This document shows, one piece after another, positions 7,573-38,283 of a stretch of 64,000 nt of DNA; the stretch's first letter is position 1; every line of letters begins with the position of its first letter. Source of the stretch: Eledone cirrhosa (Eukaryota). The notes beneath the pieces were generated by a model. It had not been told where the DNA came from. It made no database searches and worked only from the letters and a program-made list of their open reading frames with translations. The translations under genes and the position numbers were made by a program. The stretch covers positions 83,142,001-83,206,000 of the forward strand of contig OZ024740.1 in the NCBI GenBank assembly GCA_964016885.1, given 5' to 3'.

Positions 7573-7603
<31 letters not shown>

Positions 7604-7743
7604 TGCATTTATCTTGCTTTATGTTTATACGAGTTATCACCAAGTCACAACCAGTGACCTCAAGAGACAACAAGGTCCGCCATGTTCAAGAAAGAACATA
7701 CATATTCACACATGCATCCTTAGTGTTTAGACTTGTGATGTAC

Positions 7744-10700
7744 TTATATTGACAGGATCTTCCTTAGTATATGGGCAGTTCCCATTAGTACTATCTTTTG
7801 TATTTCTGCTATACGCGGGTTTCCTGGGATTTGCGATAAATAGTCGTTAGACACCTTAGGTATCATTCCCAGAGCGCCTACAACCACTGGTATTGTTTTA
7901 GTTCTCAATTTCCACATTTTTCCAATTTCTATCGCCAGGTCCTTATACTTGCTCAATTTTTCAAATGTTTTTATAGATACATTCTTGTCTATTGGAACAG
8001 ACATATCAATTAGCAGACATACCCTCCTTTGAAAGTCCTTCAATATTATATCAGGTCTATTTGCATCTATTTTTCGGTCTGTTTGGATGCTAAAGTTCCA
8101 CAAGATTGAGATGTGATCTTTTTCAAGTATGGGAGGTGGTTGATGCTCCCACCAATTCTTTTGATGGGGCAGGTCAAAATGCTTACACATTATCCAATGT
8201 ATGTATTGTGCAGCTCTGTCATGCCTGTTTAGGTATTCGGTTGGAGCTATAGGACTGCACATTGAAATTATATGGTCAATGGTCTCTGGTTGTTTTTTGC
8301 ATACACGGCATAATGGGCTGCACCCATTTTTTATTATGTTGGCTTGGTGATTTTTGTTGGCAGACACTGATCTTGTGCTGATATAATCAGTCCTTCAGTC
8401 TCCGATTTCAGGGCAGAGGATGCCAACCACTGATGGGTTAAAGTTTTGTCAACATCAGGATTGTTAGCTCGCTCTGGGTATTTTCCATACAGAGGCTTTT
8501 CTTGCCATTTCTTAGCCAGTTTCTGTAGCAGTTCTTTCTTTGCAGTTACTTTTACCTGCTTTGCTTTTTCTGTGTTTTCCATTTCAGCAGTAAATGGGAC
8601 TTCTGAAATTTGTAGTCCATTACTGTATCTTTGTGCATCTTTTGTAATGGAATATGATCTTTTGGTGCTTTCGTGTTTCAAAACGAGTTTGATCATCCAA
8701 TCATATGATTCCCTTAGATATGTGGATAATCCAATTGATGCAGTTTTCAACGCAATGTCTAACTGGATTAACCCACGTCCTCCTTCTTTCCTAGGGATAT
8801 ATATTCTATCTATGTCTGCCTTAGGGTGATGCATTCTGTGCATGGTTAAGAATTTTCGGATTTTGTATCGAGCCTACGGATCTCTGTGCTTGACCAGTTG
8901 ATGACATTGTAACTGTTGGTTACTACTGGTATGGCAAGCGTGTTTATGGCATCGATCCTATTCCTTGCATTCAATTCCATTCTTAAGATTGCTCTGACTC
9001 TGCGGTAACATTCCTTCCTTATCCTTTCCCTCATTGTCGAGTGCTTGATTCCGTCTCCTTCACAAACACCTAGATATTTGTAAGTGTTGTCTTGATCAAG
9101 CTCTCTTATCACGTTCCCCCGATCAAGATTAATGTCTGAACTCTTCAGCAGCTTTCCTTTGGTGAACGCTGCTTTGGCGCATTTATCCAGTCCAAACTCC
9201 ATTTTAATGTCATCACTGAACTGCTTCACAGTGGATAATAGCTCTTGCAATTGTTCATCATTTTTTGCAAATAGTTTCAGGTCATCCATGTAGAACAGGT
9301 GATTAATGGTTTTGTCATAGACTCTATATCCATGTTTTGTTTCATTGAGCATTTTACTTAATGGTATAAGTGCGATGCAGAATAAAAGCGGTGATAAAGA
9401 GTCACCCTGAAAAATTCCACAATTAATGTTAACTTCTCCAGCTTCCAGTGATTTTGTTTCACTATTCAAAAGGAGTGTCGTTCTCCATGTCCTCATACTG
9501 AATGACAAAAACCTCCTGACAACGGGGGATATTTTGAAAATCTCTAAACATTTTTCAATCCAACTGTGTGGCAAACTATCGAATGCTTTTTTATAATCTA
9601 TCCAAGCAATCGATAGATTTTTGTGTCTATTATGACAATCTTCCAGTATCATTTTGTTAACCAGAAGCTGATCCTTACAGCCATATGAGCCTCGTTTACA
9701 CCCTTTCTGCTCAATGGGAAATAGGTCATTTGTTATCAGGTGGTCATATGTGTATTCAGTTAGGACTGATGTTAAAATTTTATACATTGTGGTAAAGCAA
9801 GTTATCGGTCTGTAATTTTTGGGATTGTTTGTCTCATCATTCTTCGGTAGCAGGAATGTAATGCCCTTAACTAGCCATGATGGTATCTTTTCTGCTCCTT
9901 AACTATTTCATTGTAAAGTTGGGCTAACAGCTCATGAGACTCTGTGAAGGCATTTATCCAAAAGTTTTGTATTTTGTCTTTTCTTGGCGATTTCCATTTG
10001 CTGGTTTTTCTTAGAGCCAAGCGCAGCTGTTCAACTGTTATAGTTTCCCTTGTTTGTTCTTCAAAGTGAGCTGTTTCTTTCATTTGTCTGTCTATCCATG
10101 GGGCATGTATGTTATGAACTTTTTCTTCGGCCCAGATCTTTTCCCAGAATTCTTGCACTTCCTCCTTGGGTGGTATTGATTTAGCAGTTATTGTTGACTT
10201 ACCAATTTTTCTGTAGAAGTATCTTTGGTTGTTTTAGAACATATTATTGTCCTTATAGAATCTAGATCGTTTTTCAAAGCGCCTTATACGAGCAGCTTTG
10301 GCCGACACTTTTTGCTTGATTGTTTCTATCAGCATGTCTATATCACATGTTGATCTTATACTGAACTTTTTTTTCAATTTTCTAAGTTTAGTTTATTTAA
10401 CATGTTCACCTACTTTATAGTTTGTTAAAATTTCTATGTCAGATCGGAGAAGGTTTATTTGGCGATTGATGTTATCTTGCCAAGTAGATTTCTTGTGGGA
10501 ATTCCTTTGTTTTTTCATCTTCACTCCACATAAGTGAGTGGTGACTTTAGCCGATGTATAATAGAGATGATTTAAGTCAGTAATGTTTAGTTTGTTTGTG
10601 ATGATAATGTTTTTGAGAATTATGTTAGTCTTGTGTATTATCTCTTGGTTCTGTTTGGAGTTCTGGATCTTAGGGAGGGTGTCTCGTTGCCCCATGTCAG

Positions 10701-11401
10701 ATTCTTTCATTTTCATCCATTCGATCATAATTTCATCCTTCAAGTTGGCAAGTTCATTCTCATTCATTTCTTTATCATTTACGATCTCATTATTTTCATT
10801 TGGAGTTTCATCCTGAGCATGCACTCCCTCCACTTTTTCGCTCCTTTCTTTAATTTGTTCTGTTGCCAGTGATTCCGCCCCAACCCCGGGATTCGAAGTG
10901 TTACAGTTTACCTCGTTTTCACTGACACATGCTTCCTTTTCCCTTCACTGACTTTGTGCTACTAGCTTGATCTGATCAATTTCTATATCAGTTAGTAACT
11001 TTTTTCTTACAATATTTCTTCGTATATTGGCTAGTTTGTTACTGTCAATATAGCCTCTGTTTTCGGGAAGTTTCTTTTTTTTTTTTTTTCCAGTTGATAT
11101 ATGTTTGTTCTGTATTCGATGTATTTGATGGGTAGTACATGGCAGTGTAGAAAGCCTCAAGGACTTCTTTATTATCTTCCCTTGACCATTTTTCTCTCTT
11201 TTTCTTTGGATTTCTTGGTGGTGAGCATGGAGGGCCAACAGTAGGAGTATTCCGGTTATGGGAGGTCTCCAGCTCCGAAGTGATGGGAAGGTTTGAACCA
11301 TTAGCTGATTGTTCGACCCCAGTCTGGTTCCTCTCTGAGGGACGCGGCCCTTTTTTACCCGGGTGACGGCCGATCCGGTATGAGATTTTATCATTAGACA
11401 T
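7744..11401 (-). pseudogene. RT-CCHC-RLE polyprotein of family A, broken by frameshifts
   Basis: RT motifs [37 protein letters not shown] and YKYLG; zinc finger CRVC..ETIDHIISMC; endonuclease RPDIIL..LIDMSVP..EKLSKYKDL. Confidence 0.92.
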
Positions 11402-11466
11402 TTACTTTATTTTGTCGCGTTTTATCCTTATCCGCCAAGGGGTAATCATTTCGTGTTACCACTTCT

Positions 11467-11555
11467 AGAACGAGTGTCAACCAAGACTAGAGGGGTCGTT
11501 CTCCCCTAGAGACATGGCTATTCCCCGCCGGCCGCCATCCCGGTATTTCTTGGTC
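11467..11555 (-). ncRNA. Candidate HDV-like self-cleaving ribozyme in the family A 5'UTR
   Basis: P1 is GACCAA/TTGGTT with a G-U first pair, P2 is AGAAC/GTTCT, P3 is GAC/GTC closing a 7-nt L3 (CCCTCTA), and a G follows P1' for P1.1. J4/2 is atypical. Confidence 0.5.
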
Positions 11556-11649
11556 ACGGGGTTTTCTTTTTGTTGCTTTTTTTAAATTGTTATTATCATG
11601 AGTGGTTCCTTAATGTGAGCATTGCGTGGCTTAAGAATGAAATTATTAA

Positions 11650-11700
11650 TAATTGTCTCCACTCCAGGCACAAGGCCAGCAATCACCCAGTGCATTACAA
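11650..11700 (-). mobile_element. SINE 3' tail fragment
   Basis: aggcacaaggccagcaatcacccagtgcattac matches the SINE tail at 54670-54705. Confidence 0.7.
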
Positions 11701-11839
11701 TAATATAATATACTTTTTGTTGTAGTTGGCTGTTATTGTTGTTGGCTATGTCGGTGGTGGTGCCGGGGCTTTTTATATTGTTGGTGAGGAAGGGGTGAGC
11801 CAGCAGTCCCATAATTGTTGATGTAGACGTTTGGCCGTG

Positions 11840-12385
11840 GCAAGGTCACCAAGTCAATCTATTTATATATTTTGCTAGCCTCTCTCTTGGCTAGTGCTAC
11901 CGACACCTTCCCTTTTCTCTCTCAAGTTAACAGGGGAATAGTGTCAGTAGCATTGAATGAGTGGTGGCGGCGATGATGGATGTGGTGGGGTGGTGGCAGC
12001 GGTGGTGTTGTGGTTACTGATATAGTATCTATGAGTTTGTGTTCGTAAGTTTAATATATATTTTTATTATATTTTGTGTTGACATATACCCGTAAAATTT
12101 GAATTAAACATTTTTTAAAATTTGAGACAATAATAATAGTAATTATTATTATGATGCCGGTGAAATTGCCGTTATCTGGCTGTTATATTTAGTGTGATGG
12201 GATAGGTAGTGTATCAAGTTTCTGGTGTTGGTGAAATTGGAATTGCTGCTGTTCTATATAGTGTAGACAGAGGGTGTTTTGTTCCATTTATAACCATTTT
12301 CTTTTTTTGAATACAAAATATATAATACAAAATTGAATATTTGAGCGATACAACAATATAATATGGATCCGAAACTTGATGGGAC
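11840..12385 (-). mobile_element. Family B 5'UTR fragment
   Basis: It is the reverse complement of parts of 35680-36250 and 36660-36690. Confidence 0.75.
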
Positions 12386-12392
12386 ATCATTC

Positions 12393-13540
12393 GAGCAACT
12401 ACCTGCAGCCTCAGATATTCAGGACGTATCGGAGGGTTGTTGCTGTTCCCAGCAAGCATGCATTTTGAAGTGTTCCAAAAAGCGGGGCGGGACCAATCTT
12501 CTTTAACCATCCTTGGAAACTCTTTGAGAGAGTACCTAGTGCGCCTATGACAATCGGGACCACTTTGACTTCATGTCAGTTCCAAATCCTTTTTATCTCC
12601 CAATTTAAATCCTGGTATCGGTTAATTGTCTCCCTCTCCTTCTCTTGCACTCTCGTGTCGAATGGGCAGGCTTCATCCACAATCAGGTACGATCGTTTTC
12701 CCTTGTCCAAAACCACCAGTCAGGTCTATTTTGTTCCAGTTTCTTGTCCGTCTGTATCCTAAAATCCCACAGCACCTTCACCTGATCGTTTTCTATCAAC
12801 GACTCTGGCTTATGCTCATACCACTTCTCAGAATGTAGTAAATTGTTTACTTTGCATAGGTGCCAGTGGAGCGCCCTGCACATTACATCATGTCTCCAGC
12901 CTTTATAGTGAGTCTGGCTAGGTGTTTACACTCGGATACAATGTGAGCTACAGTCTCCTCTCTCTCTCCAGAGATCCTACACAGTGGGCAAGTCTCCTCT
13001 TTGTAAATATGGTGTTTCACCCACTTCGTTTTGAGGGCCTGCTCTTGCGCAGCCATTAGCATTCCTTCTGTAGCCTTTTTAAGGTCTCCTCTTTTCAACT
13101 AGTTCCATGAGAATAGCGGCGGAGGCGATAATGATGCAATGGTGGTGGTGGTGATGTGATAGTAGTACTGTAGTGATGTGTTGAAGTCGAAGTAGAAGTA
13201 GAAGTTGAAGAAACAGTTGGTTTGGCTAGATTTCTTTTGTGTGGTAGTGGTGATGGTGGCGGCGGCGGTGTGGGTGTTGATGGTGAAATTATTTGCCTAT
13301 CCACGTAGCCATTTTCCTCTATTTTGACTATAACATTTCTGATCCAAAATTAAATATTAAATATTGGGGACCTATGCCGTAATGTGATGCGCTGTCGGCT
13401 GCTGAGGGTGAAAACTGTAATCTTATATTTCATTTGTAATAAGAATTATTCTATCACAGATGTTTTAAATAAGTAAAAATCAAAATCTTACGGGAGCGAT
13501 TCCATAACGATATATATCGCCCGTGTGCGTTTTCTTCCCT
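12393..13540 (-). mobile_element. Internally deleted family B element (5'UTR joined to the CCHC/RLE 3' end)
   Basis: 13110-13540 is 5'UTR, including the terminal gggaagaaaacgcac..cgctcccgtaag motif. 12393-13108 is the WLKRGDLKK..RYVLNI region. No RT is present. Confidence 0.8.
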
Positions 13541-13591
13541 ATTATTAATATTATTATTATTAATATTATTATTATTATTATTATTGTTGTT

Positions 13592-16500
13592 ATTCCTTGA
13601 ATCTCATTCATTGATGTTGGTTAACTAGAAAGTCCGTTGGAATGAATATCAAGCCACTACCTGCAGCCTCAGATATTCAGGACGTATCGGAGGGTTCTTG
13701 CTGTTCCCAGCAAGCATGCCTTTTGAAGCGTTCCAAAAAGCGTGAAGGGGCCGATTTTCTTTAACCATCCCTGGAAACTTTTGGAGATAGTCCCCAGTGC
13801 GCCTATGACAATCGGGATCACTTTGACTTCATGGCAGTTCCAAATCCTTTTCACCTCCCACTTTAGGTCCTGGTATCGGTTAATTTTCTCCCTCTCCTTC
13901 TCTTGCACTCTTGTGTCGAATGGGCAGGCCACATCCACAATCAGACACGATCTTTTTTCTTTGTCCACAACCACCAGGTCAGGTCTATTGTGTTCCAGTT
14001 TGTTGTCCGTCTGTATCCTAAAATCCAACGGCACCTTCACCTGATCGTTCTCCATCACCGCCTCCGGCCTATGCTCATACCATTTCTCAGAATGTGGTAA
14101 ATTGTTTACTTTGCACAGGTGCCAGTGGATCACCCTGCCCATCACATCATGTTTCCAGCCCTTATAGTGGGTCTGGGCTAGGTGTTTACACTCGGATACA
14201 ATGTGAGCCACAGTCTCCTCTCTCCCTCCACAGATCCTGCATAGTGGGCTAGCCTCCTCCTTGTAAATATGGTGCTTCAACCACTTCGTTTTGAGGGCCT
14301 GCTCCTGCGCAGCCATTAACATTCCTTCTGTAGCCTTTTTGAGGTCTCCTCTTCAAAACCAGTTCCATGTCTGTGGATCTCTAAATTCAGTTTTCTCAAA
14401 GAAGGTACTATGAAGGGATATTCCCTGAAGGCTGCTCGTTCTCCTTGATGTTATTTCCTCATTGGACATCCCCTGGCCTACTGTCCCCTCCTTCAGTACA
14501 GTTCTGTGCATTGGCTCCTTACTATCTGTCACGTATTTGTATAGGTTGTTTTTCTCCATCTGAACACAGTCCTCTATGCTGATAAGACCTCTTCCACCCT
14601 CAGATCTCCTTAGGTAGAGTCTATCGACATCACTCCTCTTGTGGAACATGTTGTAGATAGTCAATAGCTTCCTAGTCTTCCTATCCATTTCTTTTTGTTC
14701 AGCAACATTCCATCTCAGAATACCCGCACTGTACCTACTAATAGACACAGCTCGGGAATTTACTGCGCTTATAGCATTTCTGCTGTTCAGATGTGACTTC
14801 AATACGCTCCTTACTCTCCGAATGTATTCAGTTCTTAACAATTCCTTCATTTTTTTGTTCTTTATGCCATCAGCCTCCAGAACGCCCAAATATTTGTATC
14901 CTTCCTCAGAGTCAATTTCCTTTATCATCTCACCTGTTGGTATCTGGATTCCGTTACTTCTGCTCAACCTACCCCTCCTCATCACAATGACTCCACATTT
15001 ACTAATACCAAACTGCATACATATATCACTGCTGAAAATAAGGACAGTGTCAACAAGCACATCCAACTCCTTCTCACTCTTCCCGAAGAGCTTAAGATCG
15101 TCCATGAAGAGGAGGTGATTGGTGGTAAGCTCTCCCTTTCCCAACTTGTATCCTGCTCTCACTTTTCGCAGCATAATGGTCAAGGGCATCAGGGCAAGGA
15201 CAAACAACAGAGGGGACAGGCTATCTCCCTGGAAGATACCTCTCTTGATCTTCACGCATCCCAAGGATTCTCCAGTTGATGTCAACTCTGTCTCGCAGGA
15301 CCCAATACTCCTGCCCAGCAACTGTCTGATGTTATCTGCCACCTTGAAATTCTCCAGGCTTTTTGTGATCCAAGAATGAGGCACCATGTCAAATGCCTTT
15401 CTGTACTCTATTCATCCCATGTCAAGATAAGTGTGTCTCCTCCTGCAATTCCCCATTACCATCTTATCAATAAATAACTGGTCCTTTGTACCACGTGACT
15501 TCTTTCGGCATCCTTTCTGTTCGTCCGGTAACAAGTTGTTTGTGTGGAGGTGATGGTAGATTTCCTCAGACACAATGCTCGTCAACAGTTTCCACATTAC
15601 GGACAGACATGTGATAGGTCTATAGTTGGTAACATCATTACCCTTGATTCGGTCTTTCATTATCAGCACTGTGGTACCTTTTGTCAACCACTCTGGCACC
15701 TCACCCGACACCAAGCAGTCTTTGAACATGGCCGTCAGCTTCGGGTGGAGGGATGTTTAAGTTTTAATCCAATACCCCTGCACACCATCTGGGCCTGGTG
15801 ATTTCCAGTTGGTTATTTTTTGGGCCTGCCCCTTAAGAGTTTCAACTGTGATACTCAAATCAATTTGTTGGTGTGCCTGCTCACCGATCTCCCTCTGTAC
15901 TGTCTCAATCCACCCTGCCTGGTCATTATGTCTAACATCCTGCTCCCATATTCCTCTCTAGAATGTTTTAGTTTGTTCCGCCCCAGGGATCAAGTCGTTG
16001 CCTCTTTCTTTCCCCTCAAGCTGTCCAAACAGCATCTTCTGGTTGTTGTCGAACATGCGGTTCTGTTTATACTGACTGACTCTGTTCTCGTATCGCTTTA
16101 TTTTTGCACTCTTTGCTACAATGCGTTGCTTCAGTTCCTCTATGATAATATTTAGCTTTTTCCTCCTAGTTTCTTACTTTATTTCCAGTCTATTTTTAGT
16201 GCCTATGTTTTTTAGTGTTTCATTCAGTAGTGACTCAAGCTTTCCTATGTCATTTCTCATTTCATTGATTTGACCACTCAGTCGTTTCTTCTACCAAGGC
16301 GCTGCTCTTTCTTGTCTGTTGTTTCCTCTCGCTTTTATACCAAGTAGTTTCCTCACCGTATTTGCTGTTGCTTTGAGGATTTTGTTGCACTGGTGAAGGC
16401 TCCTCGCCTCAAGGTATGGGATGACTTTGTTTACATTAGCTGTTGTTTCTTTTAACTTTTTCCTGTCTACAAATCTTAGGTTCATAGGTCTCCCACTATC

Positions 16501-18054
16501 ATTGTTTAATTCATCTACCACTAAATTTAGGATGTCAACCGAATCTTGTCCTAGCCCGTCAGCATTCATCTCCTCAGTGGCCGTATCTCTGTTCCAGGTA
16601 TTATTTATCTCAGTATTCAGATCATTGTCTGCTTCGGGTGGTTCCTCCGTTCTCTCGACCTCTTTACCTTCATTTCCCACTGGCTCGTTTGTCTGGCATA
16701 CTACACCCTCCATCTCCAAGCTATTCTCTCTGCTCAGTTCCTCCAGTTCCAGCTCGCTTATCCACCCATTAGTTCTTATTACCCGAGCCTGCCCGGCCAA
16801 TTTTTGTTCATCTAATTTAAATAGACCAATCTCGTTCCAGATGTTATGCATCCGTCTCCTATAGCTCCTCTCCTTGGGGTTACTTTTCAGGTAACATTGC
16901 ATAACATTTCTATTCAATTCTTTCGTCCAGTTGGTTCTGGCCCCTTTCCTTCTTCTTCTTCCTCCAACATCAGCAGTATTTGGTTGACAGTCAGGTTACT
17001 GCTGCTGAGCCAGGGAGCACCTGTTGGGTGAGAGTCTGTCACATGACGTTTTAGTCTCCATTTCACCGTTATTCGAACTGTTTAGGTTCGATATTTAAAC
17101 ACTCTTATCGAGGATTGGCGAATGTATCGTTACATAGCCATCTGTGGATTCACCGTCGCCGGTGTTTGCGCCGCTCCACTTGGCACTTGTGTGGCATTAT
17201 CACATTGTAATGTAGTGTTCGAATGTCTGACTTAGTTTTTCCCCCCCTCTTCTCTGTCCGTCCGCTTGTTTCTCTCTTCATTCTTATTTTCATTACGTTT
17301 TTTCTGTTTTTTTTGTTTTTTTTGTTTTTGTTTTTCTCTGTTTGTTTTTCTCGTTTGTTGCTGTTGTTGCTGTGCTGCTTTGGTTTTGTTTGTTTTTTCT
17401 TTTTTCTTTTGAGTCTATCTATATATTTTGATGCTTTCCTCTTTTTTAGTAGTAGGAATTCTATAATGTGGTGGCAGCAGCTAGCAGGGAGCTGTGGGAG
17501 ACAGTAGCGGCGGTAGCGATACTGAGACAGTGGTGGCGGTGATGTCGATACCGAGGCAGTGGTGGTGGTGATGTGATCGTATTACTGTAGTGATGGTGTT
17601 GTAGCGGTGGTAGCATTGAAGGAGTGGTGGCGGCGGTGATGGGATAGTGGTGGTAATGATGGCAGTAGTGAGTGGTGGTGGTGAAATTGCCGTTATCTGG
17701 CTGTTGTGTTTAGTGTACACAGAGAGGTGATGGGGTAGGTGGTGTATCTAGTTTCTGGTGCTGGTGAGATTGGTGTTGTTTGGCTGTTCTATATAGTGTA
17801 GACAGAGGGGGGGGGGGGTATTCTTCCATTTATAGCCATTTTCTTTTTTGACTATACAATGTACAGTTGAATATTTGAATATTTGAGCCTTATAACAATA
17901 TATTTTGGGTCCGAATTTTTTGGGGCTCAAGCCGGATGCTTTACGTAGCATTTGTACTAAGAGTTGTTATTTCACAACTGATTTAAATATGTTAAAAAAT
18001 TGAAAACTTACGGGAGCGATTTCATGATTTCACCACCTCGTGCGTCTTCTTCCC
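13592..18054 (-). mobile_element. R4/Dong-clade retrotransposon, family B, full length
   Basis: It has (TAA)n on both sides, a 5'UTR of about 1 kb starting gggaagaagacgcac, and ORF fragments covering the N-terminus, RT, CCHC and RLE. Confidence 0.92.
13669..17061 (-). pseudogene. RT-CCHC-RLE polyprotein of family B, frameshifted
   Basis: Motifs [55 protein letters not shown] and RPDLVVVD..IVDVACPFD..EKINRYQDLK. Confidence 0.9.
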
Positions 18055-18103
<49 letters not shown>

Positions 18104-18106: not shown

Positions 18107-19727
18107 ATTTGCATTTATCTTGTTTTATGTTCATACAAGTTATCACCAAGTCACAACCTGTGACCTCAAGAGACAAGATCCGCTATGTCCAAGAAAGAAC
18201 ATACATACACACACTCATGCATCTTTAGGTGTTTAGACTTGTTTTGTACTTATATTGACAGAATCTTCCTTAGTATATAGGCAGTTCCCATTAGTACTAT
18301 CTTTTGTATTTCTCCTATATGCGGGTTTCCTGGGATTTGCGATAAGTAATCATTAGACCTCTTAGATATCCTAGAGCGCCCACAACCACTGGTATTGTTT
18401 TAGTTCTCAATTTACACAGTTTTCCAATTTCTATCTCCGGGTGCTTATACTTGCACAATTTTTCAAATGTTTTTATAGATACATTCTTCTCTATTGGAAC
18501 GGACATATCAATTAGCAGGAATACCCTCTTTTTAAGTCCTTTAGTATTATATCAGGTCTATTTGCATCTATTTTTCGGTCTGTTTGGATGCCAAAAGTTC
18601 CACAAGATTGCGATGTGATCTTTTTCAAGTATGGGAGGTGGTTGATGCTCCCACCAATTCTTTTGATGGGGCAGGTCAAAATGTTTACACATTATCCAAT
18701 GTATATTTTGTGCAGCTCTGTCATGCATGTTTAGGTATTTGGTTGGATCTATAGGACTGTACATTGAAATTATATGATCAATGGTCTCTGGTTGTATTTT
18801 TACATACACGGCATAATGGGTTGCATCCATTCTTTATTATGTTGGCCTGGTGATTTCTGTTGGCAGACACTGATCTTGTGCTGATATAATCAGTCCTTCA
18901 GTCTCCGATTTCAGGGCAGAGGATGCCAACCACTGATGGGTTAAAGTTTTGTCAACGTCAGGATTGTTAGCTCTTTCTGGGTATGTTTCATACATAGTCT
19001 TTTCTTGCCATTTCTCAGCCAGTTTCTGTAGCAGTTCTTTCTTTGCAGTTACTTTTACCTGCTTTGCTTTTTCTGTGTTTTTCATTTGAGCAGTAAATGG
19101 AACTTCTGAAATTTGTAGTCCATTACGGTATCGTTGTGCATCTTTTGTAATGGAGTAGGATCGTTTGATGCTTTCGTGTTTCAAAACGAGTTTGATCATC
19201 CAATCATGTGATTCCCTTAGATATGTAGATAATGCAATTGTTGCAGTTTTCAACGCAATATCTAACTGGATTAACCCACGTCCTCCTTCTTTCCGAGGGA
19301 AATATATTCTAACTTAGGGTTATGCATTCTGTGCATGGTTAAGAATTTTCTAATTTTTGTATCGAGCCTACGGATCTCTGTGCTTGAATAATTGATGATA
19401 TTGTAACTGTTACTACTGGTATGGCAAGCGTGTTTATTGCATCGATCCTATTCCTTGCATTCAATTCCGTTCTTAAGATTGCTCTTACTCTGCGGTAACA
19501 TTCCTTCCTTATCCTTTCCCTCATTGTCGAGTGCTTGATTCCGTCTCATTCACAAACACCTATATATTTGTAAGTTTCCTCTTGATCAAGTTCTCTTATC
19601 ACATTCCCCCAATCAAGATTAATGTCTGAACTTTTCAGCAACTTTCCTCTGGTGAACGTTGCTTTGACGCATTTATCTAGTCCAAACTCCATTTTAATGT
19701 CATCACTGAACCGCTTCACAGTGGATA
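18104..19727 (-). mobile_element. Family A copy, 5'-truncated
   Basis: It is colinear with 7602-9238 and carries more indels. Confidence 0.9.
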
Positions 19728-23220: not shown

Positions 23221-23293
23221 TATTATTATTATTTGACATCGTTTAAACTAAACATTTCGAAAGAGTTTAGAGATACAGCGACAATAATTAGTA

Positions 23294-27000: not shown

Positions 27001-27900
27001 CTATGATTTCGTTTGTCACAGGATTACCAATCATTATTTGTTTTCTATTTTTGATTGTATTTGGGAGATTTTTAAATGGTTTTCTATCATTTATACTAGA
27101 ATGTCTTACTACATACTGCAAGCTGATTCATTATTTTTTGCTTTAATTCCTTCATAGTCTTCAGCAGATGTTTGGCTTTCAATTACTGTTTGTAAATCCG
27201 TCTCCTGGCTATTTTCAGCGGATTCAATAGGGCTTCTCATTTCTACAAACCTATTTGTGATTTGGTCAGATGGAGGTCTTTCAGTAAAGACTTGTGACTG
27301 GTTACTATCTCCAGGAGATTCTTCAGTTCTTTCATCATTTATATTTATGTCATTCTCCCCAGCCTGCTTGATCGCAGTTAGTTCAGTGTATGTGAGTCTA
27401 TTATTTCTGAAGATATACCTCCTTACATTTGCCAACTTATTTCCATCCATATCACGTCTGCTAGCTTGATTCCGAGTTTTCCAGATTTTGTAGGAGTTTA
27501 AAGTGTGTCTCTCTTGTGATGGATTACCTAATGCATAGTAATATGCATATATTATTTCTTTATACTCTTCTCGGGTCCATTTCATCCTTTTAGGATTTTC
27601 TTTTTGAGGTGGTTTGGGTGGTGTATCTGGAGGTCTCGATTTTGTGCAATCCGCGATCAAGTGACCATCCAGGTTCATAATTGGAGAAGGGTTTGTGCCA
27701 GAGGAGGACTTTTCGATCTGAGGTTGGCACCTTCCTGAGGGACGTACTTCCTGATTAACTATAGGAAAAGCGATTTGGTATTGTGTATTCATTTTTATTT
27801 GTTCATCTCGCAGTACATGCTTGCGTTACGCATGGTATTGGACGTATATGGAAAGTTGCCTTCTCTTTGGGTAGTGCATTTGCTGGCTGACACTGAGATA
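24030..27900 (-). mobile_element. R4/Dong-clade retrotransposon, family C, near full length and decayed
   Basis: N-terminal ORF 27109..27792 (KWTREEYKE..NKLANVRR, as in family A), RT 25190..26068 (FYMDDLKLY) and RLE 24304..24618. It has (TAA)n at both ends. Confidence 0.88.
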
Positions 27901-27946
27901 ATTATTATTAGTATTATTATTATTATGGATATTATTATTATTGTTA

Positions 27947-28880
27947 TTTGAGACTCAGTCATTGATGTTATTTAACTGGAAAGTTTGTCGAAATGAATAT
28001 CAAGCCGCTACCTGCAGCCTCAGATATTCAGGACGTATCGGAGAGTTCTTGCTGTTCCCAGCAAGCATGCCTTTGAAGTTTTCCAAAAGGCGGGGCTGGA
28101 TCTACTTTCTTTAAGCATCCTTGAAAACTCTTTGAGATAGTACGTTGTGCGCCTATGACAATCGGGACGACTCTGACTTCATGGTAGTTTCAAATCCTTT
28201 TTAGCTGCCAATTTAAGTCCTGGTATCGATTAATTTTCTCCCTCTCCTTTTCTTGCACTCTCGTGTCAAATGGGCAGGCTAAGACTACAATCAGGCACGA
28301 TCTTTTTTCCTTGTCCAAAACCACCTGGTCAGGCCTATTGTGTTCCAGTTTCTTATCCGTCTGTATCCTAAAATCCCATCGCAGCTTCACCTGACCGTTT
28401 GCTATCAGCGACTCTGGCTTATGCTCATACCACTTCTCAGAATCACCCTGCCCATCACATCATGTCTCCAGCCTTTATAGTGAGTCTGGGCTAGATGTTT
28501 ACACTCGGATACAATGTGTCCCACAGTCTTCTCTCTTTCTCCACAGATCTTACACAGTGAGCTAGCCTCCACCTAGTAAATATGGTGTTTCACCCACTTC
28601 GTTTTGAGTACCTGCTCTTCCGCAGCCATTAGCATTCCATCTGTAGCCTTTTTTAAGGTCTCCTCTTTTTAACCAGTTCCATATCTGTGGATCTCTAAGT
28701 TCAGTTTTCTCAAAGAAGGTACTATGAAGGGATTTTCCAAGTAGGTTGTTCTTCCTCCTTGTTGTTATTTCCTCCATGGACATCCCCTGGTCTATGTTCT
28801 CTCCTTCAGTACAATTATGAGCATTGGCTCCCTACTGTCGGTCACATATTTGTGCATGTTGTTTTTCTCCATCTGAACAC
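27947..28880 (-). mobile_element. Family B copy, 5'-truncated
   Basis: It contains the 3'UTR, RLE and CCHC regions, with (TAA)n on both sides. Confidence 0.88.
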
Positions 28881-28899
28881 ATTATTATTATTATTATTA

Positions 28900-29697
28900 T
28901 TGCATTTATTTTGCTTTATGTTCATACGAGTTATCACGAAATCACAACCAGTGACCTCAAGAGACAACAAGGTCCGCCATGTTCAAGAAAGAACATACAT
29001 ACACACACATGCATCTTTATTTGTTTAGACTTGTGATGTACTTATATTGACAGAATCTACCTTAGTACTATCTTTTGTAATTCTCCTATACACGGGTTTC
29101 CTGGGATTTGCGATAAGTAATCATTAGACCCCTTAAGTATCATTCCTAAAGCACCTTCAACCACTGGTATTGTTTTAGTTCTCAATTTCCACATTTTTCC
29201 AATTTCTATCTCTAGGTCCTTATATTTGCTCAATTTTTCAAATGTTTTAATAGATACATTCTTGTCTACCCTCTTTTTAAAGTCCTTCAGTATTATATCA
29301 GGCCAATTTGCATCTATTTTTCGGTCTGTTTGGATGCTAAAGTTCCACAAGATTGAGATGTGATCTTTTTCAATTATGGGAGGTGGTTGATGCTCCCACC
29401 ATTTCTTTTGATGGGGGAGGTCAAAATGCTTACACATTATCCAATGTATGTATTTTGCAGCCTGTGATGGTTGTTTAGATATTCGGTTGGAGCTATAGGA
29501 CTGCACATTGAAATTATATGACCAATGGTCTCTGGTTAATTTTAGATACACGGTATAATGGGTTGCACCCAGTTGTTATTATGATGGCTTGGTAATTATT
29601 TGTTGGCAGACATTGATCTTGTGCTGATATTATCAGTCCATCAGTCTCCGATTTCAGTCCAGAAGATGGCAACCACTGATAGGTTAAAGTTTTATCC
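28900..29697 (-). mobile_element. Family A 3' part
   Basis: It is colinear with 7602-8450. Confidence 0.88.
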
Positions 29698-31512
29698 ATG
29701 TTCTCTTTCTCCTTGTTATTTCTTCCTTGGACATACCCTGGTCTATTCTCCTCGCCTTCAGTACAATTCTGAGCATTGGCTCCCTACTATCAGTCACGTA
29801 TTTGTGTAGGTTATTTTCTCCATCTGAACACAGTCCTGTATGCTGATAAGACCTCTTCCACCTTCAGTTATCCTTTAGTACAGTCGATCGACATCACTCC
29901 TTTTGTGGAACATGTTGTCGATAATCAATAGCTTCCTAGTCTTCCTATCCATTTCTTTTGTTCAGCAACATCCTATCTCAGAATTCCCGCACTGTACCTA
30001 ATAATAGACACAGCTCGGGAATTTACTGCACTTATGGCATTCCTCCTGTTCAGATGTGATTTTAATACACTCCTTAATTTACGAATGTATTCAGTTCTTA
30101 TCAATTCCTTCATTTTTTTGTTCTTGATGTCATCAGCCTCCAGAACACCTAAATATTTGTATCCTTCTTCAGTATCAATTTCCTTTATGATCTCACCTGT
30201 TGGTACCTGGATTCCGATGCTTCTGCTCAATTTACCTCTCTTTATCACAAGGACTCCACACTTACTAACACCAAATTGCATACATATATCATTGCTGAAA
30301 ATACGGACAGTGTCAACAAGCACATTCAACTCCTCCTCACTCTTCCAGAAGAGTTTACGATCGTCCATAAAGAGGAGGTGATTGATAGTAAGCTCTCCTT
30401 TTCCCAACTTGCATCCTGCTCTCACTTTTCGAAAGTATAATGGTCACGGAGATCAGGGCAAGAACAAACAGCAGAGGGGACAAACTGTCTCCCTGGAAGA
30501 TACCTCTCTTGATCTTCACGCCTCCCAGGGATTCTCCAGCTGATGTTAACTCTGTTTTCCAGGACTTCATACTTTTGTTCATCAACTGTCTGATGTTATC
30601 TGCCACCTTGAAGATCTCTAGGCTTTTGGTGATCCAAGAATGAGGCACCATGTCAAATGCCTTTTTGTAGTCTATCCATCCCATGGCAAGACCAGTGTGT
30701 CTCCTCTTGCAATTCCTCATGAACATCTTATCAATAAGTAACTGGTCCTTTGTACCACGGGACTTCTTTCGGCATCCTTTCTGTTCGTCCGGTAACAAGT
30801 TGTTTGTGTGGAGGTGATGCTAGATTTCCTCAGACATAATGCTTGTCAACAGTTTCCACATTACGGACAAACATGTGATAGGTCTATAGCTGGTAACATC
30901 ATTACCCTTGATTCGGTCTTTCATTACCAGAACTGTGGTACCTTTTGTCAACCACTCTGGTACCTCACCTGACATCAAGCAGTCATTGAACATGGTTGTC
31001 AGTTTCGGGTGGAGGGATGTTATATTTTTAATCCAATACCCCTGCACACCATCATGGCCTAGTGATTTCCAGTTGGTTAGTTTTTGGCCTGTCCCTTAAG
31101 AGTTTCAACTGTGATACTCAAATCAGTTTGTTTTTGTGCCTGTTCACTAATCTCCTTTTGTACTGTCTCAATCCACACTGCTGGTCATTATGTTTAACAT
31201 CCTGCTCCAGTATTCCTCTCCAGAAATTCTTAGTTTGTTTTGCCTCAAGGATCATGTCGTTGCCCATTTCATTCCCTTCAAGCTGTCCAAACCGCTTCTT
31301 CTGGTTGTTGTCAAACATGCGGTTCTGTCTATACTGACTGACGCTGCTCTCGTCTCGCCTAATGTTTGCACTCTTTGCTACAATGCGTTGCTTCAGTTCC
31401 CCTATGATAATATTTAGCTTTCAGTTCCTCTATGATAATATTTATCTTTCAGTCATTCTATGATATTTTTTTATCTTTTTCCTCCTAGTTTTGTACTTTA
31501 TTTCCAGTCTAT
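29698..31512 (-). mobile_element. Family B RT-containing middle part, fused directly to the family A 3' part
   Basis: ORFs 29973..31318 match the family B RT. There is no tail or (TAA)n at the 29697 junction. Confidence 0.88.
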
Positions 31513-31514
31513 TA

Positions 31515-31552
<38 letters not shown>

Positions 31553-31932
31553 GAATGCCATGGTTGACGGAGGCTCGGCTCTGTAAGGTATAGTAAATTT
31601 TAACCGTTAAAACAATTGTAAATTGTTTAAAACTTGAACCAAATTGTTGATAAAGACACCCTCCTCCTCGTGAGAGGGGTCTTTCTGTCCGTTATTTGGC
31701 CCTTCGGGGTTAAATAACCAGTTATTGGGATTTTGTACCCAACATTTCATTTTAAACAAAAAAACAACATGGCTACGAAAAAGAAATTTCATACGTCACT
31801 CCCACTCATTCCGTCTTCTTCTTCCTCAATCATCACTACAGCAGAGAGAAGATTGTCTCTCTCCCTCCCTTCTTTAAATGTGTCTCTCTCCCTCCCTTCT
31901 CTTTCTCAAGTGACGAAAGAAATAAAAGTCTC

Positions 31933-33869
31933 GTGCAAAGCGTGCAAGGTTTCTCCACGACGACGACGACAGCGACGAAACAGGTGTGCGGGAAATACGA
32001 AAACCCAGTTCATTCGTCTGACGTCAGGAATAATAGCAGTAGCAGCCGTAATAACAACAGCAACAGTGACAATGAAAACAACAGTAGCAGCCGCAACAGC
32101 ATCACCAGCAGCATAAACAACAACAGCATTAGCAGCAGCAACACCAACAACAACCACAGCAACAGCGGCGGAGGCAGTAGTCGTAGTACCTGCAGCAACA
32201 ACAAAAGTACCAGCAGCTCTGACGACAACAACAACAGCAGAGAAAAACCAATCTCATTTGCAGGTATTGCGAAAAACTTGGAAACAATCCTCATAACAAA
32301 TGAGGAATTAGAGGAAGCGAAGAAGATGGTGACAAAGAACGGACACCGAGCAATCTGCAAGGCAGCGACAAAATTTTTCGAAACCCAAGAGCACTGTACG
32401 GTCACGTACCGTACAGTAAGTACAAAATCCCGTAGGGTGGAAAGAGCCACAGAGGCCCAACTACAAAAAGCCTTGGGGTCTGTGTGGCAGTGGAAAACGC
32501 ACATCACCCGAGGCAAAAAATATGCCACCGTAGACGTACTTTTTGCCACACCCCAGGAGGCAAAGGCCCAATCAGTAGTGACCCTAAGGAGCGAGGAAAT
32601 GGTGTTGGTGCCCTCCTACTGCGGGCAAAAAATTGTGAGGGTCAAACTGACCCACGTCCCCCCCCGGAATGACCCCTTCTTGGCTGGCCGCGTCTGTCCT
32701 CGTCGGAATCGAAGACAAAACAACTGTACTGCAAGTACAGAAAAAAGTAAGAGAAGATTGGGTCGGCTCCTCCATTGAGATGCTAATCCAAACCAACCAG
32801 GAGTGCATCGAAGCTATCCCGGATGTGATAGACTTCGATAACGGCACTCAACTGCCCATAAGTGTTGAGGGCAAACGCCCGAAATGCTTTCGCTGTGGAT
32901 CGAAGACTCACCTCAGGGCCTTCTGCAACGAGAAGACCCTGAGAAAGGAGAAAACCCCCCTCCTTCCGAATCCGGCTCCACGGCTACCAGCAACAGGACA
33001 AGCGGCAACCAGGAACGATAGGCCCGTGGCACCCATACCCACTCCACGGAAATCAAAAACAGCAGCAGCAGTGGAAATATTAACAACAACAAAAGCAATA
33101 CCAAATGCAGCTGCAACAGAGACTCCAGTGCAAACATCACCAACAACAACAAGTGAAAGAGTGGAGCTGGTACCCCTCCCCGACCTCACAGAATCAGACA
33201 TGGAGTGTGAGGTGGGAGAGAGATGGCAAAAGGTCGTAAGAAGGCACAAACGCAGAAGCAGCGCATCGTCGCCTTTGAAAAGGGAGGAAGGAAATGAGAA
33301 AAGGGTAAAGTCTACTGCAAAGAGACCCACAGCAGCAACAACACCAACACCATCAGCACCCACACTAGCACCACCATCACCACCGGCGACAACCCCACCG
33401 CCAACAACACCTTCAACACCACCACCACAAGCACCAACATCGCAAACACAACAACAAAACACACACACCCAGCAACAACGACAAGAAAATAGCAGAACCA
33501 CACCCCACCCGCAGAAAAACAAATGCACGGCAATAAATACACACAACAAGAAACTAATAATTGAAACTAATAATTGAACACACAGACATTTCACAACAGG
33601 ACTACATAATACCAGCACCAATCAAAACGCCAACTAACATAAGACTGCTAAAAATAGCACAGAAACAATACACAAATATTAAAACGAAATTCCCCAACGC
33701 AGTTGGTGATTTCAGGGACCTAGGAGGAACCATCAATCGAAGAGTATACTCAGACATTCTCTTAGAAGAGCCGACGACCAGCCGAAGGGACGATTCAACG
33801 GTCCCTTCACCAGACGATCAAGTGAAAAGGGATGTAAAAACCATCCCTCCTCTACCAAAAGTACGGTAA
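31933..33869 (+). pseudogene. ORF1, gag-like with CCHC knuckle, in three frames
   Basis: ORFs 31933..32778, 32669..33577 and 33561..33869. The first frameshift lies near a C7 run. Confidence 0.8.
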
Positions 33870-33904
33870 GTGGTCTTTCCCATCCTTTCCACTTTATTTT
33901 AAAC

Positions 33905-34190
33905 ATGACCTCACTCAGAATAGTCAGCATAAATGCGCGTGGCTTGGGGTCGTCATGGAAGCAGGGTCACCTGCTCAACGACCTCGGGTCACTAAACATA
34001 GATGTAGTGGCCATCAGCGAGACCAGAATCTCCGAAGCACGGGCCTTCGCACCGATCTTCGGCGGCTACGATGTGTACGCATCTCCCAGCCGTCCTGGAT
34101 CGGGTGGAGGAGTTGCTGTGCTTTTTCGGAGAGGTTTGGATCTCGCCATACGGGCCATCTTCCTGGACCCAGAGGGTAAGCTGGTGGTGC
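33905..34190 (+). pseudogene. APE endonuclease N-terminus, truncated
   Basis: SINARGL, ISET and GGGVAVL motifs are present. The sequence switches to antisense family B at about 34190. Confidence 0.85.
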
Positions 34191-34380
34191 TCTTCTGGTT
34201 GTTGTCAAACATGCGGTTCTGTCTATACTGACTGACTCTGTTCTCGTATCGCCTAATGTTTGCACTTTTTTGCTACAATGCGTTGCTTCAGTTCCTCTAA
34301 GATAATATTTAGCTTTCAGTTCCTCTATGATAATATTTAGCTTTTTCCTCCTAGTTTTGTACTTTATTTCCAGTCTATTA

Positions 34381-34410
<30 letters not shown>
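34190..34410 (-). repeat. Direct duplicate of 31297-31552 (family B segment plus (TTA)n)
   Basis: It has the same truncation point (ccagtctattattgttatt) and the same internal 28-bp tandem unit. Confidence 0.9.
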
Positions 34411-34412
<2 letters not shown>

Positions 34413-35531: not shown

Positions 35532-35534
35532 CCG

Positions 35535-37033
35535 AGGGAAGAAGACGCACATGGTGGATAGAAGGTCATGAAATCGCTCCCGTAAGATTTTGATTTTTAA
35601 CATATTTAAATCAATTGTGAAATAACAATTCTTAGTACAAATGATGCATAAAGCACCAGACTGAACTATCAGAAAAATTCGGATCATAATATTCTGTTAT
35701 ATCACTCAAATATTTAATTTTGTATTATAGATTTTATATTCAAAAAAGAAAATGGTTATAAATGGAAGAAAACCCCCTCTGTCTACACTATATAGAACAG
35801 CCAAATAACAGCAATTTCACCAACACCACAAACTAGATACACCACCTATCCCATCACCTCTGTGTACACTAAATACAACAGCCAGATAACGGCAATTTCA
35901 CCACCACCACCACCAATAATCCCAGAATAATAATAATAATTACTATTATTATTGTCTCAAGTTTTCACAAAATGTCTAAATCCAATATTAAGGATTTATG
36001 TCAACACATATATTAAACATACGCGACTAACCGCATAGATACGGCGATCAAACGATCAAACAACTACAGTCTATTCAACAAAACTCAGGAACGACAACGC
36101 CATCACTATAGTCACCGCCGCCACCACTCCATCCATCATTGCTACAACTATCCCATCACCACCGCCACCACTCCTTCATTGCTACCACCGCTATTCCCCC
36201 CATTACTTCTGTTAACTTACGAAAGGGGAAGGTGGCGGTATCACTAGAAAATATTAATATTTAATTTTGGATCAGGAATGTTAGAGTCGAAAAGGAGGAA
36301 AATGGCAAAATGACTAAATGACTAAATGACTAAATAGCTAAATAGCTAAATGGCTAAGTGGGCGGAGAAGATATTTTCACCACCAACACCACCACCACTA
36401 CCACGCCAAAAACTCTGGTCAAGTTACCTCAACTTCTATTTCTACTTCAACTTCAACACCAGTACTACGATCACATCACCACCACCACTGCGTCATTATC
36501 GCTACCGCCGCTATTCTCTCCCACTACCTCCTGCTAAGTACTACTATCACAGCACCACCTTCACCACCGCCACCACTGCCTCATTATCACTACCGCCGCT
36601 ATTCTCTCCCACTACCTCCTGCTACATCGTAGTGTCTCCACTAAAAGAGGAAGGCATCAAAATATATAAATAGACTGATTTGATGACCCGGTCAAAATAA
36701 AAAAAACAAAAATCAAAATCAAAGCAGCACAGCAACAACGAAAAACGTAAAGAAAAGAAAAATGAAGATAAAAACAGACAGACGGTCAGAGAAGGGAAGG
36801 GAAAATCTAAGTCAGACATTCAAACATTACATTACAATGAAACCTATGCTTATTCTTTTTTGTTTTGTTTTTTGCCTGTTTGTTTGTTTGTTTATTTATG
36901 TTCGTCTACAGCGTGATAGTGCCACACAAAAATCACCGGGAGTGACAAAATCACCGGAGGTGATGAAATCACCGGTGGTTATGTAACCATACATTCACAA
37001 ATCCTCGATAAGAGTGTTTAAATGTCGAACCTA
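35535..37033 (+). mobile_element. Family B 5'UTR, inverted relative to its adjacent 3' part
   Basis: It begins with the element 5' terminus gggaagaagacgcac and ends tgtcgaacctaaa, just before the ORF start, followed by (TTA)n. Confidence 0.88.
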
Positions 37034-37057
37034 AATTATTATTATTAATGTTATTAC

Positions 37058-37748
37058 TCTTTGAGTCACAGTCATTGATGTTAGTTAACTGGAAAGTTTG
37101 TTGAAATGAATATCAATCCACTACCTGCAGCCTCAGATATTCAGGACGTATCGGAGGGTTCTTGCGGTTCCCAGAAGCATGCCTTTTGAAGCGTTTCAAA
37201 AAGTGTGAAGGGGCCAATTTTCTTTAACCATCTCTGAAAACTTTTTGAGATAGTCCCCAGTGCGCCTATGACAATCGGGATCACTTTGACTTAATGGCAG
37301 TTCCAAATCCTTTTTACCTCCCACTTTAAGTCTTGGTATCGGTTAATTTTCACCCTCTCCTTCTCTTGCACTCTCGTGTCGAATGGGCAGGCCACATCCA
37401 CAATCAGGCACGATCTTTTTTCTTTGTCCACAACCACCAGGTCAGGTCTATTTTGTTCCAGTTTCTTGCCCGTCTGTATCCTAAAATCCCACAGCACCTT
37501 CACCTGATCGTTTTCTATCACCGCCTCTGGCTTATGCTCATACCACTTCTCAGAATGTGGTAAATTGTTTACTTTGCATAGGTGCCAGTGGATCACCCTG
37601 TCCATCACATCATGTCTCCAGCCCTTATAGTGAGTCTGGGCTAGGTGTTTACACTCGGATACAATGTGAGCCACAGTCTCCTCTCTCCCTCCACAGATCC
37701 TGCACAGTGGGCTAGCCTCCTCCTTGTAAATATGGTGTTTCACCCACT
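37058..37748 (-). mobile_element. Family B copy, 5'-truncated
   Basis: ORF 37291..37743 covers CCHC and RLE. It has (TAA)n on both sides. Confidence 0.9.
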
Positions 37749-38283
37749 TATTATTATTATTATTATTATTGTTATTAATATTATTATCTAATTATGGTTT
37801 GGTTTTGTAGTTTCCGAGGAATGTTATTCAAGACTAGAGAGCTCTACTGCCATTATTACTGTTGTTATTTTATATAAGACAAACACCTCGAATAGGAAAA
37901 CATCCTTTAATCCACTTCCACAATTCTCGAATATTTTTGTAAAATTCAGTGCACTACATAGAAACATCAACTACATAACATCCAATGTAAGCAACAGCAA
38001 TGTTTTGCTATATTTGATATTAAATTGATGGTATATCCAAACAGTTATTATAGGAACATAGGTGACGGTGTAGGTGTCTAAGACTTGTTGTTTATGGAAA
38101 GGGATTTAGTATATTATGTGAATTGAAATTGTGAAAAAAAAAACGATTGCAAATATGTTGATCTCTTTTACCTTTTTGTTTTTTCTTTGGAAGGATGTCA
38201 GAAAAGTATTGATATCATTAATATCTGTTCCGCCACGTCAATGATAGACGCCAATCTTTATGATGATAATCTTGATTACCACA

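What the first reader, a model, noticed from the sequence alone, without database searches (positions are those of the whole stretch)
7602..37750. About 30-kb unidirectional head-to-tail array of three R4/Dong families
Seen: about a dozen copies or fragments of families A, B and C, all with coding regions on the minus strand. They are mostly joined by short (TTA)n runs with almost no unique DNA between them. Inference 1: serial insertion into the tail or flank of the previous copy grew the array from one microsatellite. Inference 2: one plus-strand transcript would be antisense to all three families, which is the architecture of a uni-strand piRNA cluster. Target polarity alone could build such a silencing locus.
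Basis: partly seen in the sequence, partly recalled or inferred. Interest (0 to 1): 0.75.

Follow-up and report, generated by a model that had tools for sequence, protein, structure and literature searches.

The report
Microsatellite-seeded retrotransposon stack, two polarities
This 30-kb stack of jumping-gene copies is real, but it is one of many such stacks across this animal genome, it also holds an unrelated jumping gene facing the other way, and its direction is likely set by a short TAA repeat used as landing site rather than by a role as a silencing (piRNA) locus, which remains untested.

Summary
The array is real: 13 Dong-like pieces of three families fill 7602-37750, and 10 of 17 junctions carry (TTA)n. 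It is not strictly unidirectional: 4,502 of 30,149 bp face the plus strand. These are two pieces of an unrelated APE-type Tx1-like LINE, which uses the same repeat in opposite polarity, and the inverted 5' arm of one B copy. Independent insertion is supported: every copy tested has closer relatives elsewhere in the genome than in the array, with no age order. One 250-bp block is a local duplication. The layout is genome-wide: 1,432 exact Dong 5' ends, 712 forward and 720 reverse. Same-strand Dong lies upstream of 25 of 38 B copies, against any Dong in 1 of 40 random 10-kb windows. Polarity holds under 11 kb (14 of 14 pairs) and is random at 11-200 kb (13 of 26). Target polarity therefore explains the strand bias; nothing here supports a dedicated uni-strand piRNA cluster, and no small-RNA data were available. 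This scan has already noted the same Dong/Tx1 arrays on other DNA of this genome.

The parts
6661..7560 (+). Old Tx1-like 3' remnant (two pieces, 70-80% to a young copy, SINE between); its AATAAA lies at 7551
7564..7601 (.). (TTA)n run, left end of the Dong array
7602..12393 (-). A1: near full-length Dong family A, 97.6% to a young copy, first 123 bp missing, ORF broken
12391..13109 (-). B0: family B 3' fragment without tail, fused on both sides without (TTA)n
13110..13540 (-). Loose A/B-type 5' UTR piece starting right after a TAA run
13584..18055 (-). B1: full-length family B, 96% to a young copy in the body; 17140-18055 is its 5' UTR, linked to B at 39 other loci
18108..19729 (-). A2: family A 3' part, 91.6%
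19728..20087 (+). Tx1-like 3' fragment (76%), opposite strand, fused between A2 and B2
20083..24008 (-). B2: family B with 5' end, 3' end lost, 85%; two SINE pieces in its 5' UTR (about 23055-23490; SINE identity recalled, repeat nature from self-BLAST)
24023..27901 (-). C: near full-length family C, best dispersed relatives 93% at the 5' end, TAA on both sides
27938..28881 (-). B4: 5'-truncated B with TAA on both sides, 83%
28900..29696 (-). A3: family A 3' part
29703..31515 (-). B5: internal B piece, 5' truncation at a TAA run, 3' end lost
31551..34191 (+). Young Tx1-like LINE, 5' 2,635 of about 6,030 bp (5' UTR, ORF1, start of APE), 98-99% to dispersed copies; 3' part and its AATAAA missing
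34191..34410 (-). Local duplicate of the B5 5' junction (31297-31546) with its TAA run; the junction occurs only at these two places in the genome
34399..35531 (-). B6: 3' arm of a 5'-inverted B insertion
35535..37035 (+). Inverted 5' arm (element start to about position 1365) of the same B insertion; twin-priming-like
37049..37749 (-). B7: 5'-truncated B with TAA on both sides
37748..37787 (.). (TTA)n run, right end; low-copy DNA follows
1..2529 (-). Neighbouring array of opposite polarity: Tx1-like on minus, (TAA)n on plus at 2411-2463, B fragment on plus at 2460-2529; three more minus-strand Tx1-like copies in the 10 kb before the window

Best explanation
The locus is a stack of independently related Dong-like (RLE) and Tx1-like (APE) retrotransposon copies joined mostly at TAA/TTA repeats, Dong on one strand and Tx1 on the other, which likely grew because each insertion leaves repeat on both sides and so adds a landing site. 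Shown: fixed opposite polarity of the two clades relative to the repeat, here and genome-wide; copies closer to dispersed relatives than to their neighbours; no age order; polarity lost beyond about 11 kb. Inferred: the Dong endonuclease nicks the (TTA)n strand and primes on an RNA ending in (UAA)n, while the Tx1 endonuclease nicks the (TAA)n strand and primes on an RNA ending in (AUU)n; insertion into any spacer gives positive feedback; later deletions, one small local duplication and one twin-primed insertion scrambled 7 of 17 junctions. The array is most likely a by-product of target choice with no host function needed to explain it.
For: TAA before 36 of 38 B 5' ends and 52 of 54 further A/B 5' ends; (TTA)n before 25 of 25 Tx1 5' ends, the window's own included. 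3' ends: A 26 of 26 TAA, B 62 of 71 TAA only (1 both, 8 none), C 1 of 1, Tx1 42 of 43 ATT. 10 kb upstream of 38 B copies: Dong same strand 25 loci (86 kb), opposite 2 (4 kb); Tx1 opposite 22 (68 kb), same 1 (4 kb); random windows: Dong 1 of 40, Tx1-like 5 of 40. 1,432 exact 5' starts, 712/720 by strand. Among the first 100 on C1, neighbours 0.1-11 kb apart are same-strand 14 of 14 (0.9 pairs expected), 11-200 kb 13 of 26. Chained arrays of at least 13 kb at 25 of 37 loci, at least 19 kb at 8 of 37, 17 of 37 running off the fetched edge, one at least 29.6 kb. 11 of 11 comparisons: best relative outside the window. Dong targeting of (TAA)n is in print (PMC7998251, PMC3812793; passages read).
Against: 3' tails can be element-encoded, so they do not prove the target; the 5' junctions carry that argument. 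The 38 B loci were the best BLAST hits (39 of 4,168 candidates scored as 40, one dropped as the same array as another) and are length-biased towards big arrays. 7 of 17 junctions lack TTA, and one block is a local duplicate, so not every piece is one insertion. Tree placement of the copies was mostly unresolved. C 5' ends are less clearly in long TAA runs, and fewer have array neighbours within 1.5 kb. No empty-site haplotype and no enzyme assay were seen.
Confidence: 0.85

Rival explanations
1. The locus is a dedicated uni-strand piRNA cluster: one plus-strand transcript from an outside promoter is cut into anti-Dong piRNAs, and selection keeps insertions antisense.
For: 85% of the interval is minus-strand Dong of three families. 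Molluscs have PIWI genes and piRNA clusters, and oyster class 1 clusters are 149-fold enriched for R2 elements (10.1101/250761, passages read).
Against: The strand bias is the genome-wide default for these families. An opposite-polarity array lies about 5 kb away. Only TAA-targeting families, plus SINE pieces, are present. A young plus-strand Tx1 copy and an inverted B arm are tolerated. 13 plus-strand AATAAA lie inside the interval and one at 7551 just before it (weak evidence). Described flam-like clusters are hundreds of kb, with their own promoter (PMC10643416, passages read).
Confidence: 0.07
2. The arrays arise by targeting, but are a dispersed class of piRNA or siRNA source: read-through from an internal Tx1 or inverted Dong promoter, or from a host intron, is antisense to the other clade.
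For: The 31551-34191 Tx1 piece keeps its 5' end and lacks its 3' AATAAA, and points into antisense B6/B7; the inverted B 5' UTR at 35535-37035 points the same way. Tx1 sits opposite to Dong near 22 of 38 B copies.
Against: No transcript or small RNA was seen. These two promoters would cover only the right 3.5 kb, family B only. No host exon was found by Pfam among 77 flanking ORFs (short exons would be missed).
Confidence: 0.2
3. The array is mainly a product of segmental or tandem duplication of an ancestral unit.
For: One junction with a shared 28-bp duplication is present twice, and only here in the genome.
Against: 11 of 11 comparisons find closer relatives outside the window; 5 to 31 outside copies beat the best in-window partner each time. 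The apparent shared flank is the elements' own 5' UTR.
Confidence: 0.04

Closest known systems
Dong (R4 clade; B. mori, A. gambiae, B. glabrata, D. stevensoni; PMC7998251 and PMC3812793, passages read)
   Same: Single ORF with RT, C-terminal CCHC and PD-type endonuclease motifs; (TAA)n at both ends; active Dong-R4 families are reported in Octopus vulgaris (PMC13282606, passages read).
   Different: Three families co-occupy the repeat in multi-family stacks of 10-30 kb at many loci, shared with a Tx1-like family. My searches showed no paper describing this, but Kojima and Fujiwara 2004 was not held and Repbase could not be searched.
SART and TRAS in Bombyx (TTAGG)n (PMC7265360, passages read)
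   Same: Two site-specific LINE families insert into one short repeat in opposite orientations.
   Different: SART and TRAS are both APE elements of the R1 clade (clade recalled) at telomeres; here an RLE and an APE element share an interstitial microsatellite.
Kibi (TC)n and Koshi (TTC)n, Tx1 clade (PMC4494074, passages read)
   Same: APE-RT two-ORF elements that target microsatellites.
   Different: The target here is (ATT/TTA)n, which these passages do not list for Tx1; supplements were not read.
flamenco and flam-like unistrand piRNA clusters (PMC10643416, passages read)
   Same: Dense transposon content with a strand bias.
   Different: There the bias is ascribed to selection under an outside promoter, over hundreds of kb of Gypsy elements, with piRNAs shown. 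Here the bias follows from targeting, ends within about 11 kb of an array, and no RNA is shown.
Drosophila telomeric HeT-A/TART/TAHRE arrays (PMC6043984; search listing only, rest recalled)
   Same: Head-to-tail LINE arrays that are also piRNA sources: a precedent for rival 2.
   Different: Those grow at a chromosome end in order (recalled); this array is interstitial and shows no age order.
L1 twin priming (Ostertag and Kazazian 2001; not read, cited in PMC6895275, passage read)
   Same: Inverted 5' arm whose internal end meets the target, RNA 5' end at the inversion point.
   Different: Seen here in an RLE element, twice (window 35535-37035; L051/L202).

Membership tests
R4/Dong clade | Single long ORF with non-LTR RT | tested here: met
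   Intact 1,216-aa A ORF in L044 with RVT_1, E 9e-27; best PDB matches are R2 proteins, E 2e-25.
R4/Dong clade | C-terminal CCHC knuckle and restriction-like endonuclease, no APE | tested here: met
   CxxC-H-C, R[HY]D and NRPD..D..K motifs in A and B (motif definitions recalled); no Exo_endo_phos hit.
R4/Dong clade | No N-terminal zinc finger (unlike R2) | tested here: met
   No C2H2/CCHC pattern in the first 430 aa of A or B.
R4/Dong clade | Diverged N-terminal Myb/SANT-like domain | tested here: inconclusive
   No Pfam Myb hit at E 0.05; a W-containing block is shared by A, B and C by eye; the paper needed HHpred.
R4/Dong clade | (TAA)n target | tested here: met
   36 of 38 and 52 of 54 5' ends.
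R4/Dong clade | RT tree groups with named R4/Dong elements | not testable with these tools
   None of the 120 listed homologues carried an R4/Dong name.
Tx1 clade (L1 group) | ORF1 plus ORF2 with APE, RT and C-terminal zinc finger | tested here: met
   1,195-aa ORF: Exo_endo_phos E 3e-14, RVT_1, zf-RVT; 702-705-aa ORF1 frames in young copies.
Tx1 clade (L1 group) | RT tree groups with named Tx1 elements | not tested
   The label Tx1 rests on domain order, target specificity and recall.
Uni-strand piRNA cluster | 24-32-nt 1U phased small RNAs from one strand | not testable with these tools
   No data to lay; see Tried and rejected.
Uni-strand piRNA cluster | Antisense bias beyond what insertion preference gives | tested here: not met
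   The same bias at most B loci genome-wide, on both strands; 15% plus-strand here.
Uni-strand piRNA cluster | Large domain with one polarity and many trapped families | tested here: not met
   30 kb; opposite polarity about 5 kb to the left; only Dong, Tx1-like and SINE pieces.
Uni-strand piRNA cluster | Upstream Pol II promoter or read-through host gene | tested here: inconclusive
   0 of 77 flanking ORFs hit Pfam; no RNA or chromatin data.

The most novel reading that the evidence does not exclude
Two unrelated LINE clades that share one microsatellite in opposite polarity build hundreds of dispersed arrays in which any read-through is antisense to one of them, so the elements write their own mutual silencing loci (Tx1 promoters making anti-Dong piRNA precursors and the reverse) with no selection on orientation. 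This array, with a tail-less young Tx1 and a twin-primed inverted Dong promoter both pointing into antisense Dong, would be one such source.
Probability: 0.18. Interest if true: 0.72.

Novelty: new variant of a known kind. Interest (0 to 1): 0.38.

Why it matters
It warns that a strand-biased transposon pile is not by itself a sign of a flamenco-like cluster: targeting gives the same picture, and here the control is built in (Dong and Tx1 face opposite ways, and polarity resets between arrays). The genome-wide system, an RLE and an APE enzyme on opposite strands of one trinucleotide repeat with young intact copies of both, is a ready test of how strand choice and self-renewing targets shape a large genome. 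The 5'-inverted Dong copies suggest twin priming is not confined to L1-type enzymes. If junction-spanning antisense piRNAs were found, the arrays would be a route to piRNA sources that needs no trapping by selection.

Tried and rejected
RNA search: no RNA holder listed, so expression and piRNAs were not tested. Laying contigs of X1 and X2 (one sample, perhaps the assembly's own) on 27500-38500 gave only fragmentary multi-copy matches and no usable junction or haplotype information. 'X' blocks first looked like shared unique flanks (segmental duplication); they proved to be the A/B 5' UTR. Age order: none (identity was to one young reference per family, so subfamily differences blur it). A subfamily of pre-truncated B copies as the source of the twice-seen junction: rejected, 2 matches in the genome, both here. 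A target-site duplication made by the young Tx1: unlikely, the duplicates are about 96% alike while the Tx1 is about 99% to its relatives and lacks its 3' end. More 5' inversions: 0 of 54 fetched starts; the other 44 of the first 100 were judged by their TAA junction only. Host exons: 0 of 77 ORFs. ESM Atlas gave only RVT_1 clusters. Kojima and Fujiwara 2004 was not held. No supplements were read; those of PMC4494074 and PMC13282606 may list ATT-targeting Tx1 families or Dong arrays.
Full report
What is there. Self-BLAST, ORFs and Pfam and annotation against single young copies of each family resolve 7602-37750 into 13 Dong-like pieces on the minus strand: three of family A, eight of B, one of C and a loose 5' UTR piece. 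A, B and C are 34-60% identical in protein. An intact A copy elsewhere has one 1,216-aa ORF with RT, best PDB matches among R2 proteins, C-terminal CCHC and PD-type motifs and no N-terminal zinc finger (motifs recalled). With the (TAA)n target this fits Dong of the R4 clade as described in PMC7998251 (passages); no tree with named references could be made. No window copy is intact (longest ORF 352 aa). The host is likely an octopus-like cephalopod; this rests on a recalled SINE motif and was not tested.

The array is not unidirectional. 4,502 of 30,149 bp face the plus strand. 31551-34191 is the 5' 2.6 kb of a second kind of LINE, about 6 kb long, with ORF1 and an APE-RT-zinc finger ORF2, 98-99% identical to at least 39 dispersed copies; I call it Tx1-like from domain order and targeting. 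Older pieces lie at 19728-20087 and 6661-7560. All 25 of its 5' ends examined follow (TTA)n on the sense strand and 42 of 43 3' ends run into (ATT)n. Dong copies read (TAA)n on their sense strand: 36 of 38 and 52 of 54 5' ends; 3' ends A 26 of 26, B 62 of 71, C 1 of 1. The two clades thus face opposite ways in the same repeat. The third plus-strand part, 35535-37035, is the inverted 5' arm of a B insertion.

How it grew. The block that recurs after several TAA runs looked like a shared flank, but it is the A/B 5' UTR, linked to B at 39 other loci. In three alignments (B 3' end, 5 window and 49 outside copies; B middle, 3 and 26; A 3' end, 3 and 31) each of 11 window comparisons found its closest relative outside the window, and 5 to 31 outside copies beat the best in-window partner; copies covering under 88% of the test segment were left out. 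The trees were mostly unresolved. Identity to the young reference does not follow position (Spearman -0.24, p 0.51, n=10). Truncated B4 and B7 have TAA on both sides, as single insertions should. Against a purely serial history: 7 of 17 junctions lack (TTA)n, and the B5 5' junction occurs twice, at 31.5 and 34.4 kb, and nowhere else in the genome, with a shared 28-bp duplication. I infer insertion at any spacer, each adding a new target, followed by deletions and one local rearrangement that also cut off the young Tx1 copy.

It is one of many. In the 10 kb upstream of 38 dispersed B copies, same-strand Dong occurs at 25 loci and opposite-strand at 2; Tx1-like occurs opposite at 22 and same-strand at 1. 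Of 40 random 10-kb windows, 1 held Dong and 5 held Tx1-like DNA. With 10 kb downstream added, chained arrays reach at least 13 kb at 25 of 37 loci and at least 19 kb at 8 of 37; 17 ran off the fetched edge, and one extended reaches at least 29.6 kb (Tx1-like relatives at 70-80% counted, gaps up to 1.5 kb allowed). These loci were chosen by a full-length B copy and are length-biased, as is the window. The exact A/B start occurs 1,432 times, 712 forward and 720 reverse, 650 of them directly after ATAATW. Among the first 100 on C1, neighbours 0.1-11 kb apart share a strand in 14 of 14 cases (0.9 such pairs expected), those 11-200 kb apart in 13 of 26. In the window itself an array of opposite polarity lies at 1-2529 and continues before the window.

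The piRNA idea. In flam-like clusters the antisense bias is ascribed to selection under a promoter, over hundreds of kb, with piRNAs shown (PMC10643416, passages). Here the bias is the default outcome of targeting, resets between neighbouring arrays, covers only TAA-targeting families and tolerates young sense insertions for a plus transcript. So the architecture gives no support for a dedicated cluster. It does not exclude piRNA output: molluscs have piRNA clusters, some rich in R2 (10.1101/250761, passages), and any transcript crossing a mixed array is antisense to one clade. The tail-less Tx1 at 31551 and the inverted B UTR at 35535 would both read into antisense B, over the last 3.5 kb only. 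This is the novel case; it is untested. Unchecked notes of this scan name other, 127-160-kb multi-family one-strand loci in this genome as cluster candidates; I did not examine them.

Twin priming. In the window the B insertion reads TAA run, inverted positions about 1365 to 1, then 3720 to the tail. At L051/L202 a second B copy reads target run, inverted 3071 to 1, 12 extra bases, then about 3084 to the tail, with a 3-base match between target and internal priming site. This is the layout of L1 twin priming (recalled; cited in PMC6895275, passage). It is rare: 0 of 54 further starts. One search found no paper reporting it for RLE elements; that is thin coverage.

Comparison and verdict. Dong on (TAA)n is known, Dong-R4 and L1-Tx1 are recently active in Octopus vulgaris (PMC13282606, passages), microsatellite-targeting Tx1 elements are known for (TC)n and (TTC)n (PMC4494074, passages), and two families facing opposite ways in one repeat are known from SART and TRAS (PMC7265360, passages). 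The combination, RLE plus APE on an interstitial (TAA/ATT)n building multi-family stacks, did not appear in my searches; the key 2004 paper was not held and no supplements were read. I reached the two-polarity reading before opening the scan's notes, which report the same on other DNA of this genome and supplied two paper leads. Verdict: real array, partly misdescribed; serial insertion largely right; cluster reading unsupported; a variant of known site-specific retrotransposition, of moderate interest.

Noticed in passing
window 35531-37049; L051/L202 (G000:C3 about 38,470,500-38,475,200): Two 5'-inverted family B copies with the layout of twin priming, in an RLE-type element.
   Followed up: partly
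L214, L227, L234, L236, L237, L247, L249, L251, L254, L258 (5' junctions): Full-length Dong 5' ends often follow (TAA)n then (GAA)n or short repeats of the element's first bases, which suggests repeated template jumps or slippage at the 5' junction.
   Followed up: no
L016, L022, L033, L036, L054, L172, L178, L184, L185, L187: Many Tx1-like copies stop matching the reference at the same position (2265), just before ORF2, and carry another 2-kb 5' part: a subfamily with a swapped 5' UTR/ORF1.
   Followed up: partly
window 17203-18055; A and B references: A and B are 34% identical in protein yet share the same first bases and 74% identity over the first 320 bp; B copies carry several UTR variants, which suggests 5' UTR exchange.
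   Followed up: partly
L077/L078, L069/L070, L087/L088, L094, L099: The young Tx1-like family forms its own head-to-tail tandems at about 6.07-kb spacing; many copies have intact ORF2.
   Followed up: partly
L059 and L060 (G000:C1 217.57 and 217.48 Mb): Two Tx1/Dong loci 96 kb apart with the same flanks on both sides: a segmental duplicate or an assembly duplicate.
   Followed up: no
L183 and L190: Family A copies with short internal inversions.
   Followed up: no
window 49889-50674 (-): RT fragment of another LINE kind (RTE-like by recall) outside the array.
   Followed up: no
window 42004-42184: Perfect 89-bp tandem duplication.
   Followed up: no
window 58947-62758: Very long degenerate (AT)n tracts, the longest about 1.3 kb.
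   Followed up: no
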